In this document: one piece after another, positions 1 through 5,638 of the stretch
Layout of the letters: the number at the start of each line of letters is the position of its first letter
Numbering within the stretch: position 1 is the stretch's first letter
IMG/VR virus record: IMGVR_UViG_3300029181_000111
Direction: 5' to 3' (one strand)
From: a virus
Lineage: Duplodnaviria > Heunggongvirae > Uroviricota > Caudoviricetes
DNA length: 5,638 nt
Notes under the pieces: generated by a model
The model's database searches: none
Told to the model about the DNA's origin: nothing
The model's input: the letters and a program-made list of their open reading frames with translations, nothing else
Program-made: the position numbers and the translations under genes

Positions 1-51
1 CTGACACCGTTGAATTATCTCGCCAAACAGCGACAAAAAGTGATGTGGTGA
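1..51 (+). CDS. Possible 3' end of an upstream AraC-family regulator gene (envY-like); 5' part lies outside the window
   Basis: Frame 1 reads LTPLNYLAKQRQKVMW then TGA at 49-51. The TP..Y spacing resembles the C-terminal G-x-TP-x-x-Y tail of AraC/XylS proteins (compare [10 protein letters not shown] at the AppY C-terminus in this window). Only 16 codons are visible, and frame 3 is also open here, so this is weak. Confidence 0.3.
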   Translation: MTPLNYLAKQRQKVMW

Positions 52-96
52 AGGGCAAAGCGGAAACGGATAAGACGGGCATAAATGAGGAAGAAA

Positions 97-141
97 TGGC
101 GCGCCCTGCAGGATTCGAACCTGCGGCCCACGACTTAGAAG
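97..141 (-). other. 3'-terminal 45 nt of tRNA-Arg(UCU) (argU) without the 5' half: prophage attachment-site core (attR-type remnant)
   Basis: Reverse complement of 97-141 is CTTCTAAGTCGTGGGCCGCAGGTTCGAATCCTGCAGGGCGCGCCA: anticodon loop with UCU, T-arm GGTTCGAATCC, acceptor 3' strand and CCA. Sequence beyond 141 (tRNA 5' side) does not continue as a D-arm or acceptor 5' strand, so this is a fragment, not a gene. Lambdoid prophage DLP12 is known to integrate into argU. Confidence 0.85.
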
Positions 142-464
142 TTCCTAGAACGACATTTTAAGTCAACAACTTACCGCGCCATCTCTGCGCTCACACGTCC
201 CACTACCTCAAAACATGTAAAGCCTTGCAAGCCATTGCGAGGCCTTATGTGTCTCAGTTTTGTCCCTCTTTTTTGTACTAAAAAACATAGTAATTGAGGA
301 TAAACCTCATGCTATTTTCGCTTATATGCCTCTAAAGGCATGGCACTTAAATAGATAAAAGCACCACAAAAGCATAAAAAAACCACACAGTAAAACCGAA
401 ATATGAAACAATAACAGATAATTAAACCAAAAACAGATAGCGCATTGTGATAATCATTCAATAC

Positions 465-481
465 TAAACAAAATATAAACA
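465..481 (-). promoter_or_regulatory. Candidate PhoP box (direct repeat TGTTTA-N5-TGTTTA read on the minus strand) upstream of ompT
   Basis: Plus strand 465-481 is TAAACAAAATATAAACA; reverse complement is TGTTTA-TATTT-TGTTTA, a perfect match to the (T/G)GTTTA-N5-(T/G)GTTTA PhoP consensus. It sits about 85-100 bp upstream of the ompT ATG. ompT is reported to be PhoPQ-regulated; function of this particular site is inferred. Confidence 0.45.
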
Positions 482-553
482 GTGGAGCAATATGTAATTG
501 ACTCATTAAGTTAGATATAAAAAATACATATTCAATCATTAAAACGATTGAAT

Positions 554-557
554 GGAG
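554..557 (+). promoter_or_regulatory. Shine-Dalgarno sequence (GGAG) for ompT
   Basis: GGAG lies 7 nt upstream of the ATG at 565. Confidence 0.7.
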
Positions 558-564
558 AACTTTT

Positions 565-624
565 ATGCGGGCGAAACTTCTGGGAATAGTCCTGACAACC
601 CCTATTGCGATCAGCTCTTTTGCT
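565..624 (+). other. ompT: OmpT signal peptide (predicted cleavage after Ala20, SFA/STE)
   Basis: N-terminal basic residues (R2, K4), a hydrophobic core, and A-x-A-like SFA before the mature N-terminus STETLSF. Confidence 0.8.
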
Positions 625-1518
625 TCTACCGAGACTTTATCGTTTACTCCTGACAACATAAATGCGGACATTAGTCTTGGAACTCTGAGCGGAAAAACAA
701 AAGAGCGTGTTTATCTAGCCGAAGAAGGAGGCCGAAAAGTCAGTCAACTCGACTGGAAATTCAATAACGCTGCAATTATTAAAGGTGCAATTAATTGGGA
801 TTTGATGCCCCAGATATCTATCGGGGCTGCTGGCTGGACAACTCTCGGCAGCCGAGGTGGCAATATGGTCGATCAGGACTGGATGGATTCCAGTAACCCC
901 GGAACCTGGACGGATGAAAGTAGACACCCTGATACACAACTCAATTATGCCAACGAATTTGATCTGAATATCAAAGGCTGGCTCCTCAACGAACCCAATT
1001 ACCGCCTGGGACTCATGGCCGGATATCAGGAAAGCCGTTATAGCTTTACAGCCAGAGGTGGTTCCTATATCTACAGTTCTGAGGAGGGATTCAGAGATGA
1101 TATCGGCTCCTTCCCGAATGGAGAAAGAGCAATCGGCTACAAACAACGTTTTAAAATGCCCTACATTGGCTTGACTGGAAGTTATCGTTATGAAGATTTT
1201 GAACTCGGTGGCACATTTAAATACAGCGGCTGGGTGGAATCATCTGATAACGATGAACACTATGACCCGGGAAAAAGAATCACTTATCGCAGTAAGGTCA
1301 AAGACCAAAATTACTATTCTGTTGCAGTCAATGCAGGTTATTACGTCACACCTAACGCAAAAGTTTATGTTGAAGGCGCATGGAATCGGGTTACGAATAA
1401 AAAAGGTAATACTTCACTTTATGATCACAATAATAACACTTCAGACTACAGCAAAAATGGAGCAGGTATAGAAAACTATAACTTCATCACTACTGCTGGT
1501 CTTAAGTACACATTTTAA
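565..1518 (+). CDS. ompT: Outer membrane protease OmpT (omptin family, protease VII), 317-aa precursor
   Basis: ORF of 317 aa with good RBS. The translation matches E. coli OmpT as I recall it, including signal peptide MRAKLLGIVLTTPIAISSFA, the catalytic Asp pair in VDQDWMD (precursor D103/D105) and the Asp/His pair in SDNDEHYD (precursor D230/H232), and a C-terminal aromatic residue (…GLKYTF) typical of beta-barrel outer membrane proteins. Confidence 0.97.
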   Translation: MRAKLLGIVLTTPIAISSFASTETLSFTPDNINADISLGTLSGKTKERVYLAEEGGRKVSQLDWKFNNAAIIKGAINWDLMPQISIGAAGWTTLGSRGGNMVDQDWMDSSNPGTWTDESRHPDTQLNYANEFDLNIKGWLLNEPNYRLGLMAGYQESRYSFTARGGSYIYSSEEGFRDDIGSFPNGERAIGYKQRFKMPYIGLTGSYRYEDFELGGTFKYSGWVESSDNDEHYDPGKRITYRSKVKDQNYYSVAVNAGYYVTPNAKVYVEGAWNRVTNKKGNTSLYDHNNNTSDYSKNGAGIENYNFITTAGLKYTF

Positions 1519-1534
1519 GAACGCCAACTAAAAT

Positions 1535-1563
1535 TTCCCCGAGGTGAAAATCGCCCCGGGGAA
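1535..1563. terminator. GC-rich hairpin in the convergent ompT/appY intergenic region; possible transcription terminator
   Basis: TTCCCCG (1535-1541) pairs with CGGGGAA (1557-1563), 7 bp with a 15-nt loop, 17 bp after the ompT stop. There is no U-tract on the plus strand; on the minus strand it is followed by AUUUUAG. Weak as a classical intrinsic terminator. Confidence 0.3.
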
Positions 1564-1767
1564 TAACTAGCCATTTCAATGTAACAATTAACCCTTAAAA
1601 TAAACCCAGAAGGTTATTAACTAAATCACATAGAAAACCATCAATTATAGTATGTATAAAATAGGCGACAGCAACCCAATTACAAATTAATGGTTCCAGA
1701 ATATCACATCAAAAAAAACGCTGTATAATATTATAATTAACATGTAGACAACTTGTAATAAACATTA

Positions 1768-2517
1768 TCAGTCAATTGTTTTGTTTATTCCATCTGTGAC
1801 GCCGATTATTTTCTCAAAATAATGAGATGGCGTGACACCATAATAATCTTTAAATGCACATATGAAATATGAAGTACTGTTATAGCCACATTTCTGGGCT
1901 ACGACATTGATAGAATAAGAGTTTGAAGTTATGAGTTTTTTTGCATACCTCATCCTAGTATCTCTCAATATTTCAGTAAATGACGTTCCTTCATCCCTTA
2001 ATCTTTTTTTTATTAAACTTTCACTCGTATAAATCAATTCCGCAATATCTTTTAAATGCCATTGCCGCTCAATATTAAAACTGATTATTCCAGTAATTTT
2101 ACAGGTAAATGTATTTATATTTGTTAGTATAAATGAATTTACACTTTCGCGTTTTTTGAACATGGCAAGTAAGGATATACATAGTCTTTCTTTTAACCAA
2201 AGGGAGTGTGAGTCTGCTATTTTAATCCCTTCAAACAGAGAAAAAACAAGCGATAATGGAGGTTCCTCTTCAGCAATATAGCCATTCTTATCAAGAGTAA
2301 ATTTGCCAGGCAGCTCATTATTCACGTCGATAAAAAAGGATAAACATGTTTTCTTATCTATATCAACAATTCTTAGTTTAGAGGGGCATACTGGTAACTC
2401 CCTTCTAATTTTGTCGCTTACAATAAACAATGAATTTTTTTTGAACGAGATAACTCTCCTGTTTATAATTAAATCAAATGATTGACAGATGAAAACTACG
2501 GAGCAAACATAATCCAT
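1768..2517 (-). CDS. appY: AraC-family transcriptional activator AppY (C-terminal HTH domain), 249 aa
   Basis: 249-aa ORF with ATG start and an AGGTG SD-like sequence upstream. The C-terminal region has AraC-type HTH signatures (…[25 protein letters not shown]…). It is convergent with ompT as in K-12 DLP12, and the sequence matches my recollection of AppY. The gene is very AT-rich. Confidence 0.9.
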
Positions 2518-3062
2518 CTTGCACCTATCATAAAATTAAAACAAGTTGATAGTAGTCAAATAACAACCAATTAAATACACAATCATAATCAGGATGATGT
2601 GCATTTATATTTTTATACACAAAATTATAGTTTGCAAATTTTAATAAATTTCATTTAAGATTAAATTATTATATGTATGTTGTTTTTTATTCTAACTTAT
2701 TTCAAAGTTACATTTTTCAACGCTTACTATGCTTTTTATTAACATAAACTCACTACAACGCACCTGAAACCTCTTGCTATATATATGTCAACCGTTTGAA
2801 TTTAAAATAAAAAGAGTATCATTTTTACTTGCATTTCTTATCAAGTCACATTCAACAACAGTAAAAAAACATTATTAGAACCATTCAATTAACAAAAAAC
2901 CAACATCCAGCTTGCTTAATTTTTCTTTATTAAACGATATTGAAAATCAATTGATAAAATACATCTAAACAACCTTTTGGGGCGCAAAAGCATAACATCA
3001 AACAAACAAATAACACACCGAAAAAACTCACAATTAATAACCTATGATATACATACTGTTTA

Positions 3063-3323
3063 TTATGGTTGAATAAGCCACTCGATATCTGGTGCTACGG
3101 AAGTGTCCACACGGTTTAGCAGCACCCGATACTTTTTTCAGGCTTCCAGCAACGATCTTTCTTCCTCCGTTGCGATTTCCAGATCTACAGCATCCTGCAG
3201 TGGCGCAATATACTCACTGAATTCCTGGATGTAGAACTGTGTGGTGACGGTCTTCCAGCCATTCGGCTCCTGCTGTATTGAAGCATACCAGGCTATTTCA
3301 ATATCGCTATGCTGCGGCAGCAT
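3063..3323 (-). pseudogene. tfaX: Tail fibre assembly protein remnant (tfaX-like); C-terminal Tfa homology interrupted by an in-frame TGA
   Basis: The 61-aa ORF 3138-3323 ends …[25 protein letters not shown], matching the intact Tfa in this window (…[29 protein letters not shown]…). At the position of Tfa Trp (TGG) this copy has TGA. Reading on in the same frame gives [20 protein letters not shown]… to a TAA at 3063-3065. The N-terminal part is diverged. Confidence 0.7.
3077..3219. repeat. Copy 1 of a 143-bp imperfect direct repeat (3' end of tfa-family genes)
   Basis: By hand alignment, 3077-3219 against 4124-4266 shows about 17 mismatches over 143 bp (about 88% identity) with no indels. 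Confidence 0.85.
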
Positions 3324-3461
3324 TTAACCCCTTGTAATTCATTGCCATAATTGATTTAATTCACAAATAAAACTATAACATGGTGAAATTAATAAAAAAA
3401 CACAGATGATGGGGCTAGAATTTACACACCACTTACCCTAAAGCTTTATGACTGGTGGGTT

Positions 3462-4046
3462 TTGGGAGTATCAAATCGGCTTGCATGGGGATGTCCTACA
3501 AAGGAACACCTTCTTCCACACTTTCTGGAACATTTAGGTAACAACCATCTGGATATTGGTGTTGGAACTGGGTTTTACCTTACTCACGTACCTGAGAGTA
3601 GTCTGATATCTTTAATGGATTTGAACGAAGCTAGCCTGAACGCGGCATCTACAAGGGCTGGGGAATCAAAAATTAAACATAAAATTAGCCATGATGTTTT
3701 TGAACCTTATCCCGCGGCGTTACATGGTCAATTTGATTCCATTTCCATGTCTTACCTTCTTCACTGCCTGCCTGGAAATATATCTACAAAAAGCTGTGTA
3801 ATACGCAATGCGGCGCAGGCCTTAACTGACGATGGAACTCTATACGGAGCCACAATTCTTGGCGATGGAGTTGTGCACAATAGCTTCGGTCAAAAACTGA
3901 TGCGCATTTACAATCAGAAAGGCATCTTTTCAAACACAAAAGATTCCGAAGAAGGCTTAACACATATACTCTCAGAGCATTTCGAGAATGTTAAAACCAA
4001 GGTTCAAGGTACTGTAGTAATGTTTTCCGCTTCAGGAAAAAAATAG
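3462..4046 (+). CDS. ybcY: Class I SAM-dependent methyltransferase (ybcY-like); start codon uncertain, possibly 5'-truncated or a pseudogene
   Basis: Motif I LDIGVGTG, an acidic residue after beta-2 (LISLMDLNE) and an FDSISMSYLLHCL motif-II-like segment. The ORF track starts at TTG 3462 with a poorly spaced SD. The same frame is open back to 3396 (…PLTLKLYDWWVLGVS…) with no in-frame ATG or GTG. ATG-ATG at 3406-3411 is one nucleotide out of frame. The position between tfa and tfaX matches ybcY of K-12 DLP12. Confidence 0.6.
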   Translation: MGVSNRLAWGCPTKEHLLPHFLEHLGNNHLDIGVGTGFYLTHVPESSLISLMDLNEASLNAASTRAGESKIKHKISHDVFEPYPAALHGQFDSISMSYLLHCLPGNISTKSCVIRNAAQALTDDGTLYGATILGDGVVHNSFGQKLMRIYNQKGIFSNTKDSEEGLTHILSEHFENVKTKVQGTVVMFSASGKK

Positions 4047-4086
4047 CATCCAACCGCAGCATGTTCTTGCTTAAGACGTGCTGCGG
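4038..4086 (-). terminator. Candidate intrinsic terminator downstream of tfa (minus-strand sense)
   Basis: Stem CCGCAGCATG (4054-4063) pairs with CGTGCTGCGG (4077-4086), 10 bp with one G-U pair and a 13-nt loop. On the minus strand it is followed by UUGGAUGCUAUUUUUUU. It lies between the convergent stops of tfa (4101) and ybcY (4046). Confidence 0.35.
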
Positions 4087-4100
4087 CATAATCCCAATGA

Positions 4101-4685
4101 TTACTCCCTGACAGGGTTCGTAGGCCACTCAATATCAGGTGCAGTTGATGTATCAACACGGTTCAGCAACACCCGATATTTTTTCCAGGCTTCCAGCAAT
4201 GAGGTTTCTTCCTCCGTTGCGATTTCCAGATCTACAGCATCCTGAAGTGGCGCAATATGCTCACTGGCTACCTGCATCAGGCTGTTTTTTGTTTCTTCCG
4301 CCTCCCGAATCCGGAACAGTTTTTCTGCTTCTGCATCTTTCACCCAGGCTGTACCGTTCCACTTCTGAAACTCCCCTTCCGGCGATAACCAGGTAACATT
4401 TTCCGGTAACGGACCGAGTTCAGAAATAAATAACGCGTCCCCTGACGCTACGTCATAAACCGTTTTACCCCGATGATCTTCAACGAGATGCCACGATGAC
4501 TCATCACTGTTGAAAACAGCCACGAAGCCAGCTGGAATATCTGGCGGTGCAATGTCGGTACTGTTTGCTGGCAGACCTGTATGAGGCGGAATATATGCAT
4601 CACCTTCACCAATAAATTCATTAGTTCCGGCCAGCAGATTATAAATTTTTATGGTCCGTGGTTGTTCACTCATTCTGAATGCCAT
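4101..4685 (-). CDS. tfaD: Tail fibre assembly protein Tfa (lambda Tfa-like), 194 aa, apparently intact
   Basis: The 194-aa ORF ([24 protein letters not shown]…[11 protein letters not shown]) closely matches lambda Tfa as recalled. Its ATG overlaps the upstream stf stop in the TAATG arrangement typical of stf-tfa. The symbol is assigned by position in DLP12 and is uncertain. Confidence 0.9.
4124..4266. repeat. Copy 2 of the 143-bp imperfect direct repeat (3' end of the intact tfa)
   Basis: See copy 1. This copy lies within the tfa coding sequence. Confidence 0.85.
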
Positions 4686-5548
4686 TATGCAAGCCTCACA
4701 ATATAGTTAAATGCGATGTTTTTGACGGTGTTTTCCGCGTTACCAGCAGCGTTAACGGTGATGGTGTGTCCATGTGAGCCAATCGCAACGGAGTGCGTAT
4801 GAGCACCAATACCGACAGTATGTGCATGTGCGCCTGCGCTTGCAGCAGTGCCGGACAGCGAGTGGGTATGAGCACCATCTGATGATGTCTTCCCTGCATT
4901 ACGAGTCTGGCCACTACCGCTTGTTGTGCTCATAATCCCCGCGCTCAGATTTGAAATCGCGGTATAACCATTAGGAAAAATGCTCGTATTCGTGCCACCA
5001 AATGCACCGGAACTCTTGTGTTGGTGCGCACCGGCACTATTTGCAGTCCCGCTAATACTATGGGTATGCGCCCCGGTGTTATTCGTGGATTTGGTTCCGT
5101 AATCAAACGACGATGTGTTTTTCGTCCCCAAATCCGTACTGGATGCGCTGGCGCTGTGGGTGTGCGATTTAATGCCGTCCTGTTCCTGAGACAATACGGC
5201 ACGACCACTGGCGGGTTTGCCCTTAATCGTCCAGCCACGCATAAGGGTGTTGCGCTGCTTATGCTCTATAAAGTAGGCATAAACACCCAGCAGCATTTTG
5301 GAATAACCGACACGGGCAGACTTCACCACATTCACCTCACGGATGTAGTCGCTGCCCATCGCATTCATGATGGCCCGCTGAAAGGGCAGTGTTTCCCAGC
5401 GCCCTTCCTGGTATGCGGATTCTTTCGGGAGATAGTAATTAGCATCCGCCCATTCAACGGCGGTCTGTGGCTCCGGCCTGAACAGTGAGCGAAGCCCGGC
5501 GCGGACAAAATGCCGCAGCCTGTTAACCTGACTGTTCGATATATTCAC
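4685..5548 (-). CDS. In-frame chimeric ORF: N-terminal ~103 aa of terminase large subunit (lambda gpA-like) fused to the C-terminal ~184 aa of a side tail fibre (Stf) receptor-binding region; deletion scar of a defective prophage
   Basis: The N-terminus [102 protein letters not shown] matches lambda gpA as recalled, with a GTG start overlapping the Nu1 stop. After …RNTL the sequence switches to Stf-like His/Gly/Ser-rich repeats ending …[31 protein letters not shown]. The junction is near nt 5240. It may correspond to the aaaD/stf remnant of K-12 DLP12, which I am not sure of. Confidence 0.85.
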
Positions 5549-5638
5549 TCAGCAACCCCGGTATCAGTTCATCCAGCGCGGCTGCTTTGTTCATGGCTTT
5601 GATGATATCCCGTTTCAGGAAATCAACATGTCGGTTTT
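5523..5638 (-). CDS. nohD: 3' end of terminase small subunit gene (lambda Nu1 homologue); 5' part lies outside the window
   Basis: The minus-strand frame reads …[37 protein letters not shown] with TAA at 5523-5525, matching the lambda Nu1 C-terminus as recalled. The stop overlaps the start of the downstream A-like ORF, as in lambda. Confidence 0.8.

What the first reader, a model, noticed from the sequence alone, without database searches (positions are those of the whole stretch)
4685..5548. Deletion junction fusing terminase A N-terminus in frame to the side-tail-fibre C-terminus
About 100 codons of a gpA-like terminase are joined near nt 5240 to the distal receptor-binding part of Stf, which removes all head and tail genes that normally lie between them. 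The prophage therefore cannot make virions. The fusion keeps the reading frame (287 aa, GTG start overlapping the Nu1 stop, stop overlapping the tfa start), and an intact tfa chaperone gene follows. A chimeric protein carrying a folded fibre tip could in principle be made from the late operon if it were ever transcribed.
Basis: partly seen in the sequence, partly recalled or inferred. Interest (0 to 1): 0.5.

Follow-up and report, generated by a model that had tools for sequence, protein, structure and literature searches.

The report
Terminase–fibre fusion scar in DLP12 prophage
This is a real 21-kb deletion scar in the DLP12 cryptic prophage of E. coli that joins the first 102 codons of the terminase gene in frame to the last 185 codons of the side-tail-fibre gene; it is ordinary prophage decay, but both breakpoints are sites that many other independent rearrangements also use.

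Summary
ORF 4685-5548 (minus strand, 287 aa) consists of lambda gpA residues 1-102 (100% identical) joined to Stf residues 803-987 of an undeleted sister prophage in strain NCTC9038 (100% identical). The junction is a 3-bp microhomology at window 5241-5243. Relative to NCTC9038, 21,040 bp are missing: the rest of A, all head and tail genes, lom, and 802 codons of stf.

The window is the right end of DLP12. It is 100% identical to E. coli K-12, except that K-12 lacks a further 704 bp (4540-5243). K-12's annotated aaaD/tfaD uses the same terminase-side breakpoint but joins it to tfa.

This junction is absent from 5,426 complete E. coli genomes. It does occur on two independent gut-metagenome contigs.

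The most likely reading is a non-functional scar made by microhomology-mediated illegitimate recombination. The open frame is not evidence of selection: 6 of 14 comparable alleles are in frame. The retained fibre part keeps the gp37-like needle and tip but loses most of the collar domain, so folding is doubtful.

One result was unexpected. The stf breakpoint is joined to at least 12 different partners, and the A breakpoint to 3. I could not explain this re-use.

The parts
5523..5638 (-). 3' end of nohD, the Nu1-type small terminase subunit gene (cut by the window edge). Its stop codon is at 5523-5525.
   Evidence: 100% identical to K-12 nohD (L001 4835-5380) and to NCTC9038 nohD.
5244..5548 (-). 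A' : codons 1-102 of the large terminase subunit gene, with a GTG start at 5548-5546. It keeps the Walker A region and lacks the rest of the ATPase domain and the nuclease domain.
   Evidence: 100% identical to lambda gpA 1-102. Pfam GpA_ATPase covers profile positions 3-61 of 247. DNA is 100% identical to K-12 aaaD and to NCTC9038 A.
5241..5243 (.). Deletion junction: a 3-bp microhomology (ATA on the plus strand, TAT on the coding strand) shared by A (..CCCTTAT|CTGG) and stf (..CTGATAT|GCGT).
   Evidence: Overlapping BLAST segments and direct reading of the three sequences.
4685..5240 (-). 'stf : the last 185 codons of the side-tail-fibre gene (Stf 803-987) plus the stop codon. It holds the gp37-like stem and tip with seven HxH motifs, and only the last few residues of the Collar domain.
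   Evidence: 100% identical to NCTC9038 Stf 803-987. Stf 744-987 matches the T4 gp37 tip 2XGF with E = 1e-82. The Pfam Collar match is Stf 761-808.
4101..4685 (-). Intact tfa (tail-fibre assembly chaperone, 194 aa). Its ATG shares base 4685 with the stop of the chimera.
   Evidence: 94% identical to lambda Tfa over all 194 aa. Pfam Caudo_TAP E = 3e-45.
4540..5243 (.). 704 bp present here but absent from E. coli K-12. In K-12 the same A' end is joined to tfa at the ATA at 4537-4539, giving the in-frame A'::'TfaD ORF (247 aa) annotated as aaaD/tfaD.
   Evidence: Window 1-4539 and 5241-5638 are 100% identical to MG1655.

Best explanation
The ORF is a scar of prophage decay.

**Origin.** An ancestral lambda-like prophage sat at the DLP12 position (argU), like the one still complete in strain NCTC9038. 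It lost 21,040 bp in a single illegitimate-recombination event. That event joined a TAT in terminase gene A (codon 102/103) to a TAT in stf (codon 802/803).

**Why the frame is open.** The join happens to keep the frame. The native GTG start of A, which overlaps the end of nohD, therefore now leads into the last 185 codons of stf and on to the overlapping start of tfa.

**Expected activity of the product.**
- Terminase function: none, because only 102 of 641 residues remain and Walker B and the nuclease are missing.
- Virion function: none, because the Stf tail-attachment N-terminus and shaft are missing and no tail is made.
- I judge it most likely a pseudogene. Its only plausible biological role is as homologous DNA (cos-nohD-A' and stf tip-tfa) that infecting lambdoid phages can recombine with.

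**Relation to K-12.** The allele is a sister or precursor of K-12's DLP12 state. K-12 has the same A-side breakpoint, and 704 bp more are gone.

**Shown versus inferred.**
- Shown: the anatomy, parentage, breakpoint, microhomology and rarity, and the fact that both breakpoints recur in other rearrangements.
- Inferred: the single-step origin, the lack of function, and the order of events leading to K-12.
For: **Parentage and breakpoint**
- The two halves match the parental proteins as set out in the observation check.
- Window 1-5243 and 5241-5638 are each 100% identical to NCTC9038. That strain carries A, W, B, C, D, E, FI, FII, Z, U, V, G, T, H, M, L, K, I, J, lom and full stf between the two points.
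- The junction is a 3-bp microhomology.

**Relation to K-12**
- K-12 is 100% identical on both sides and has the same A end joined to tfa.

**Rarity and reality**
- No one-piece match to the junction exists in 5,426 complete genomes.
- The junction is on two independent metagenome contigs.

**No sign of selection on the frame**
- Other strains carry many different deletions of the same kind at DLP12 and Qin. Of the 14 alleles examined, 6 are in frame and 8 are not, against an expectation of one third.

**Lost domains**
- The Collar domain is largely lost.
- The tail-attachment domain (Stf 1-94, PDB 9E7M) is lost.

**Known recombination role**
- De Paepe et al. showed that lambda recombines with DLP12 around cos/nu1/A and with the Qin and Rac stf-tfa regions (PMC3945230).
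Against: - All three DNA-level alleles that use this same stf breakpoint in complete genomes (window, 23AR1101, F2_81) are in frame. So are several alleles found only as proteins. This could hint at selection for translation into the tip or tfa.
- The stf breakpoint is re-used by at least 12 different partners and the A breakpoint by 3. Plain random microhomology joining does not predict this.
- No expression data were available, so non-function is an inference.
Confidence: 0.8

Rival explanations
1. The fusion is kept because it is useful. Translation from the A start through the fibre stem and tip is retained by selection. The benefit could be production of a soluble needle/tip protein with Tfa, or continued translational coupling of tfa to upstream translation.
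For: - The stop/start overlap with tfa is preserved.
- Three of three complete-genome alleles at this stf breakpoint are in frame.
- In three lineage pairs, the shorter allele is in frame and the longer one is not: E14 to KSC9, DLI5a to CUPS03, and S3 to K-12 Qin. In two of these pairs the in-frame allele is also much commoner. The KSC9 type is on 480 contigs and the CUPS03 type is in about 50 complete genomes.
- Pfam places the end of the Collar domain 5 residues after the breakpoint.
Against: - Overall 6 of 14 alleles are in frame, which is not significantly above one third.
- At this same breakpoint there are also out-of-frame or inverted joins: L143/L145 and L146.
- The window allele itself is very rare (0 of 5,426 complete genomes). 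In K-12 the fibre part has been deleted altogether.
- The product has no signal peptide and no tail-attachment domain.
- Relative to T4 gp37, the collar domain D10 is cut in the middle (PMC6957217).
Confidence: 0.1
2. The junction was not made by a random event. A site-preferring process acts repeatedly at TA-centred sites, for example a recombinase or transposase acting at quasi-sites, or an insertion sequence that sat at the junction, made adjacent deletions on either side and was later excised. Under this reading K-12's allele arose from the window's allele by a second event at the same site.
For: - The stf site ..CTGATA|TGCGTGG is joined to A nt 10, 308, 560, 829 and 1048, to J, to a ParB-like gene, to inverted A and to others.
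- A nt 245 has at least 8 partners.
- A nt 306-308 has 3 partners: this window, K-12, and L142.
- 11 of 14 junctions have TA at the crossover.
- Within single lineages, pairs of alleles differ by a deletion that starts exactly at the older junction: window/K-12, E14/KSC9, and S3/K-12 Qin.
- The same stf breakpoint occurs at the DLP12 locus in a background 1.3% diverged from the window (L140), which points to independent recurrence.
Against: - No invertase crossover-like site or matching inverted repeat lies at the breakpoint.
- No unusual hairpin potential was found.
- None of the alleles I fetched has an insertion sequence at the junction.
- Microhomologies of 3-5 bp are also what ordinary illegitimate recombination gives.
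- The sampling of alleles was not exhaustive, and part of it (the protein search) sees only in-frame events.
Confidence: 0.3
3. The junction is an assembly artefact that joins two multi-copy prophage repeats, nohD-A' and the stf tip.
For: Both sides are repeated in most E. coli genomes (median 4 places per genome), and no complete genome has the junction.
Against: - The same junction, with identical DNA for about 1 kb, is on two contigs from different metagenome projects assembled with k = 127 and k = 119. A 3-bp overlap could not be bridged at those k values without spanning reads.
- The window runs uninterrupted from ompT through the junction into nohD. Both flanks are 100% identical to the DLP12 locus of K-12 and NCTC9038.
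Confidence: 0.02

Closest known systems
aaaD / tfaD of E. coli K-12 DLP12 (b4634, b0561)
   Same: Same locus, same prophage and the same terminase fragment. The first 308 nt of A are 100% identical and the A-side breakpoint is the same to the base. Both are in-frame fusions read from the A start.
   Different: In K-12 the partner is tfa (codon about 49), so the whole fibre remnant and the start of tfa (704 bp) are missing. Here the partner is stf codon 803 and tfa is intact.
StfQ (b1547) of the Qin cryptic prophage, and its variants in other strains
   Same: It is also a head-and-tail deletion that fuses the start of A in frame to an Stf C-terminus followed by tfa. StfQ begins VNI, the first three codons of A, and its fibre part is 97% identical in DNA to the window.
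   Different: The locus and both breakpoints differ: A codon 3 is joined to a point 318 residues from the Stf end. StfQ therefore keeps the complete Collar domain.
T4 gp37 receptor-binding tip (PDB 2XGF) and the Ur-lambda Stf distal domain
   Same: The retained fibre part is homologous to the iron-binding stem and tip (E = 1e-82 for Stf 744-987). It has all seven HxH motifs and the conserved C-terminus [11 protein letters not shown]. In T4 and Ur-lambda this part binds OmpC or LPS and needs a chaperone, gp38 or Tfa (PMC6957217, PMC12617516).
   Different: The chimera starts at about gp37 residue 858, so it lacks residues 811-857 of collar domain D10. It also lacks the whole shaft and the tail-attachment domain, and carries an unrelated 102-residue N-terminus.
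Lambda gpA (large terminase subunit)
   Same: Residues 1-102 are identical, and the overlap with the Nu1 gene is the same.
   Different: 539 of 641 residues are missing. The start codon is GTG, as in the intact DLP12-type A of NCTC9038.

Membership tests
Lambda-type large terminase subunit (gpA) | Complete N-terminal ATPase domain (Pfam GpA_ATPase, 247 profile positions) | tested here: not met
   Only profile positions 3-61 are matched, on residues 47-103. Identity to lambda gpA ends at residue 102.
Lambda-type large terminase subunit (gpA) | C-terminal nuclease domain and a length of about 641 aa | tested here: not met
   The ORF is 287 aa, and nothing after residue 102 aligns to gpA.
Lambdoid side tail fibre (Stf) | N-terminal tail-attachment domain (Pfam phage_tail_N; PDB 9E7M residues 1-94) | tested here: not met
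   The domain is present in the 987-aa NCTC9038 Stf and absent from the chimera.
Lambdoid side tail fibre (Stf) | Collar domain (PF07484) preceding the distal stem | tested here: not met
   The Collar match is Stf 761-808 and the chimera starts at 803. There is no PF07484 hit in the chimera.
Lambdoid side tail fibre (Stf) | gp37-like distal stem and tip with HxH iron-binding motifs and a conserved C-terminus | tested here: met
   There are seven HxH motifs. The segment is 100% identical to Stf 803-987 and homologous to 2XGF.
Functional trimeric fibre tip | Chaperone-dependent folding into an SDS-resistant trimer that binds OmpC or LPS | not testable with these tools
   This needs expression with Tfa and biochemical assay. 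A monomer structure prediction would not settle it and was not run.
DLP12 cryptic prophage (argU locus) | Flanking gene order ompT-appY-tfaX-ybcY'-tfa ... nohD, and the att repeat of argU | tested here: met
   Window 1-4539 and 5241-5638 are 100% identical to MG1655 DLP12. Window 95-141 is identical to the 3' end region of tRNA-Arg at the other prophage end in NCTC9038.
Tail-fibre assembly protein Tfa (neighbouring gene) | Full-length Caudo_TAP protein | tested here: met
   194 aa, 94% identical to lambda Tfa. PF02413 E = 3e-45.
Invertase (Pin/Gin/Cin) crossover site at the breakpoint | A 26-bp site with AAACCnnGGTTT-like core, and a matching inverted copy next to tfa/pin | tested here: not met
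   There is no such site at window 5241-5243 or at the homologous Qin position, and no inverted repeat linking it to the tfa-pin spacer.

The most novel reading that the evidence does not exclude
The two breakpoints of this scar are recurrent hubs. The stf site GATA|TG lies at the end of the Collar domain and is joined to at least 12 different partners in diverged lineages. The A site at nt 306-308 has 3 partners, and the neighbouring A sites at nt 245 and nt 1048 have at least 8 and 4. Junctions are nearly always centred on TA. Within lineages, later deletions start exactly at the older junction. This would mean that decay of lambdoid prophages, and perhaps the shuffling of fibre tips onto new N-termini such as J, is driven by a site-preferring break-and-join process. 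Alternatively, selection could favour fusions that begin precisely at the stem/tip module. Either way it would not be random microhomology deletion.
Probability: 0.3. Interest if true: 0.55.

Novelty: new member of a known kind. Interest (0 to 1): 0.3.

Why it matters
**On its own.** The ORF is a previously unannotated allele of a well-known cryptic prophage. It documents an intermediate state between a complete DLP12-type prophage (NCTC9038) and the K-12 remnant. It also explains the odd K-12 annotation: aaaD overlaps tfaD because tfaD is itself an A'::'Tfa fusion.

**The wider point.** Terminase-fibre fusions of this kind are common in E. coli, and their breakpoints cluster on a few TA-centred sites. 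If that clustering is mutational, it points to an unrecognised mechanism shaping prophage decay and fibre-tip modularity. If it is selective, it suggests that fibre stem/tip plus Tfa cassettes are kept translatable in defective prophages.

Tried and rejected
**Searches that found nothing or added nothing**
- Exact 31-nt junction scans of the species-representative genomes and of the JGI metagenome contigs found nothing. The junction was found only through the exact-protein look-up in ENA assemblies.
- NCBIfam gave no hit for the chimera or for Tfa.
- Promoter and terminator scans of 3000-5638 gave counts equal to shuffled controls, so they say nothing about expression.
- Literature searches for aaaD, tfaD/nohD, stfQ/tfaQ/nohA and for terminase-fibre fusions found no description of this allele or of breakpoint re-use.

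**Explanations tested and not supported**
- Invertase crossover site at the breakpoint: no AAACCnnGGTTT-like site and no inverted repeat to the tfa-pin spacer.
- Hairpin or cruciform at the hub sites: DNA folding z-scores ran from -1.7 to +2.4, nothing unusual.
- In-frame enrichment as evidence of selection: 6 of 14 alleles are in frame, which is not significant. At the stf hub, 4 of the 6 other alleles found at the DNA level (excluding the window) are in frame (binomial p about 0.1).
- Insertion-sequence target motifs recalled from memory did not fit all hub sites: IS5 YTAR, and the TTAC or TTAT targets of the IS200/IS605 family. I did not test these further.

**Other**
- I did not run a structure prediction. 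A monomer model of an intertwined, chaperone-dependent trimer would not decide whether the truncated tip folds.
- I first computed the K-12 difference as 701 bp. The correct figure is 704 bp (window 4540-5243).

Full report
**What the window is.** The window is the reverse complement of the right end of the E. coli cryptic prophage DLP12. The gene order, with strands, is:
- ompT (565-1518, +)
- appY (1768-2517, -)
- the tfaX fragment (3138-3323, -)
- the frameshifted methyltransferase ybcY (about 3462-4046, +)
- tfa (4101-4685, -)
- the ORF in question (4685-5548, -)
- the end of nohD (from 5523, -)

Window 1-4539 and 5241-5638 are 100% identical to K-12 MG1655.

**Checking the observation.** The ORF is 287 aa with a GTG start.
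- Its start lies 26 nt inside nohD, as in lambda Nu1/A.
- Its stop shares base 4685 with the tfa ATG.
- Residues 1-102 are 100% identical to lambda gpA 1-102, and similarity then stops.
- Residues 103-287 are 66% identical to the C-terminus of lambda Stf (orf-314 residues 115-314). They are 100% identical to residues 803-987 of the 987-aa Stf of strain NCTC9038.
- Pfam sees GpA_ATPase (profile positions 3-61 of 247) and the fibre repeat.
- Tfa is complete and 94% identical to lambda Tfa.

**Parent and breakpoint.** NCTC9038 carries an undeleted lambda-like prophage at the same locus. It runs from tRNA-Arg and the remains of int, through the Q, lysis, nohD and A genes and all head and tail genes, to J, lom, stf, tfa, ybcY, appY and ompT.
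- Window 1-5243 and 5241-5638 are each 100% identical to it.
- The window equals NCTC9038 minus record positions 3312947-3333986, which is 21,040 bp.
- The two segments overlap on 3 bases: ATA at window 5241-5243. On the coding strand, A reads ..CCCTTAT|CTGG and stf reads ..CTGATAT|GCGT.
- This is a typical short-microhomology illegitimate join.

**Relation to K-12.** K-12 lacks window 4540-5243 (704 bp).
- Its junction joins the same A end to an ATA inside tfa at window 4537-4539.
- Translating K-12 from the A start gives a 247-aa in-frame A'(102)::'Tfa ORF carrying both Pfam domains.
- This explains why the K-12 annotation has aaaD overlapping tfaD.
- The window allele is therefore either the precursor of the K-12 state or a sister event at the same A site.
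- The K-12 junction is in 366 complete genomes.

**How common is the allele.**
- No complete genome of 5,426 holds the window junction in one piece.
- Exact scans of two contig collections found nothing.
- The exact 287-aa protein is on two gut-metagenome contigs from different projects. Their DNA is identical to the window over 968-988 bp.
- The junction is therefore real and natural, but rare. No dN/dS test is possible.

**What the product could be.**
- The A' part keeps the N-terminus and the Walker A region, but nothing else of the ATPase or nuclease.
- The Stf part is homologous to the T4 gp37 tip (2XGF, E = 1e-82 for Stf 744-987) and keeps seven HxH motifs.
- By that alignment the junction corresponds to about gp37 residue 858. 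That is inside collar domain D10 (residues 811-881 and 1010-1026). The stem and tip, D11 (residues 882-1009), is complete (PMC6957217).
- Pfam places the Collar match at Stf 761-808, so 42 of its 48 residues are gone.
- The tail-attachment N-terminus (PDB 9E7M, Stf 1-94) is gone (PMC12617516).
- A virion role is excluded. Autonomous folding of the tip is uncertain.
- Promoter and terminator scans are uninformative. Transcription would have to come from the Q-dependent late promoter far upstream. That statement rests on established lambda biology and was not tested here.

**Comparable alleles elsewhere.** Fusions of the A start to Stf or Tfa are frequent.
- K-12 StfQ begins VNI, the first three codons of A, joined in frame to the last 318 Stf residues.
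- Across DLP12 and Qin-type loci I characterised 14 alleles.
- Six are in frame: the window, K-12 DLP12, K-12 Qin, CUPS03, F2_81 and 23AR1101.
- Eight are not in frame. This fraction does not differ from one third.
- A protein search found many more in-frame fusions of A, Nu1, H, J and other N-termini to Stf tips. One 348-aa form is on 480 contigs.

**The unexpected part: breakpoints are re-used.**
- The stf breakpoint of this window (..CTGATA|TGCGTGG, codon 802/803) is joined to many partners:
  - A nt 308 (this window)
  - A nt 560 (L139)
  - A nt 829 (23AR1101)
  - A nt 1048 (F2_81)
  - the Nu1 end / A nt 10 (L140)
  - J (L141)
  - a ParB-like gene (L147)
  - a short unknown ORF (L092)
  - inverted A (L143/L145)
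  - an unidentified sequence (L146)
  - two more partners seen only as proteins
  
  Each join uses 3-5 bp of GATAT.
- L140 is at the DLP12 locus in a background 1.3% diverged from the window, which argues for independent recurrence.
- The A breakpoint (nt 306-308) has three partners: this window, K-12 and L142.
- A nt 245 has at least eight partners.
- A nt about 1048 has four partners.
- Eleven of 14 junctions have TA at the crossover.
- Within lineages, allele pairs differ by a deletion that begins exactly at the older junction: window/K-12, E14/KSC9 and S3/K-12 Qin.
- The last 1,200 nt of stf hold about 50 ATA/TAT positions and 72 TA dinucleotides. Chance re-use on this scale is therefore unlikely.
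- I found no invertase site, no hairpin and no resident insertion sequence to explain the pattern. It remains unexplained.
- A caveat on sampling: the protein-based part of the sample can only see in-frame events, and the DNA-based part is small.

**Verdict.** The finding is correct, and its main interpretation stands. It is a deletion scar in a known cryptic prophage, and a new allele of a known kind. It is most probably non-functional apart from serving as recombination substrate for infecting lambdoid phages (PMC3945230). Interest is low to moderate. What could raise it is the hub-like re-use of both breakpoints, which deserves a proper census.

Noticed in passing
window 95-141: This 47-bp stretch is 100% identical to the region overlapping the 3' end of tRNA-Arg at the far end of the NCTC9038 prophage (L003 22922-22968). 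It looks like the att repeat marking the right boundary of DLP12. It places ompT and appY inside the prophage and envY outside.
   Followed up: partly
window 3074-3230 and 4121-4277: The 3' part of tfa is present twice in direct orientation at about 85-87% identity: once as the tfaX fragment and once in the intact tfa. The two copies bracket the oppositely oriented, frameshifted methyltransferase gene ybcY. This looks like a cargo gene inserted between duplicated tfa ends.
   Followed up: no
L001 5355-6098 (K-12 MG1655): K-12's annotated tfaD CDS starts at an internal ATG of the terminase A' fragment (codon 61), in the A frame. The full ORF from the A start is a 247-aa A'(102)::'Tfa fusion. 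The pseudogene aaaD and the CDS tfaD are therefore one fused reading frame.
   Followed up: yes
L141 1501-2610; protein P0078: The C-terminal region of J (the central tail fibre) is fused in frame to the Stf stem/tip. In P0025/L141 the join is exactly at the stf codon-803 breakpoint. In P0078 it is a few residues later. These could be host-range variants of J rather than decay products.
   Followed up: no
L143 and L145 (IMG/VR contigs), about 70 nt upstream of the stf breakpoint: Here the same stf breakpoint is joined to the reverse complement of the 3' part of terminase gene A. This is an inversion junction, not a deletion.
   Followed up: partly
L147 and protein P0016: One endpoint in a ParB-like gene (..LTDVLPG|) is joined to two different stf positions: codon 803 in L147 and ..NALTATKLQ.. 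in P0016. This is another case of a re-used endpoint.
   Followed up: no
window 3991-4128 (minus strand): In NCTC9038 and PSJ-16, RefSeq annotates a 45-aa ORF here as 'nucleocapsid protein'. The ORF overlaps the end of ybcY and the spacer before tfa. The name is almost certainly a spurious annotation.
   Followed up: no
L007 2796-4069 (strain PSJ-16, DLP12 locus): A third, independent DLP12 deletion allele sits in a K-12-identical background. A nt 742 is joined out of frame to tfa near its start, with no TA at the junction.
   Followed up: partly
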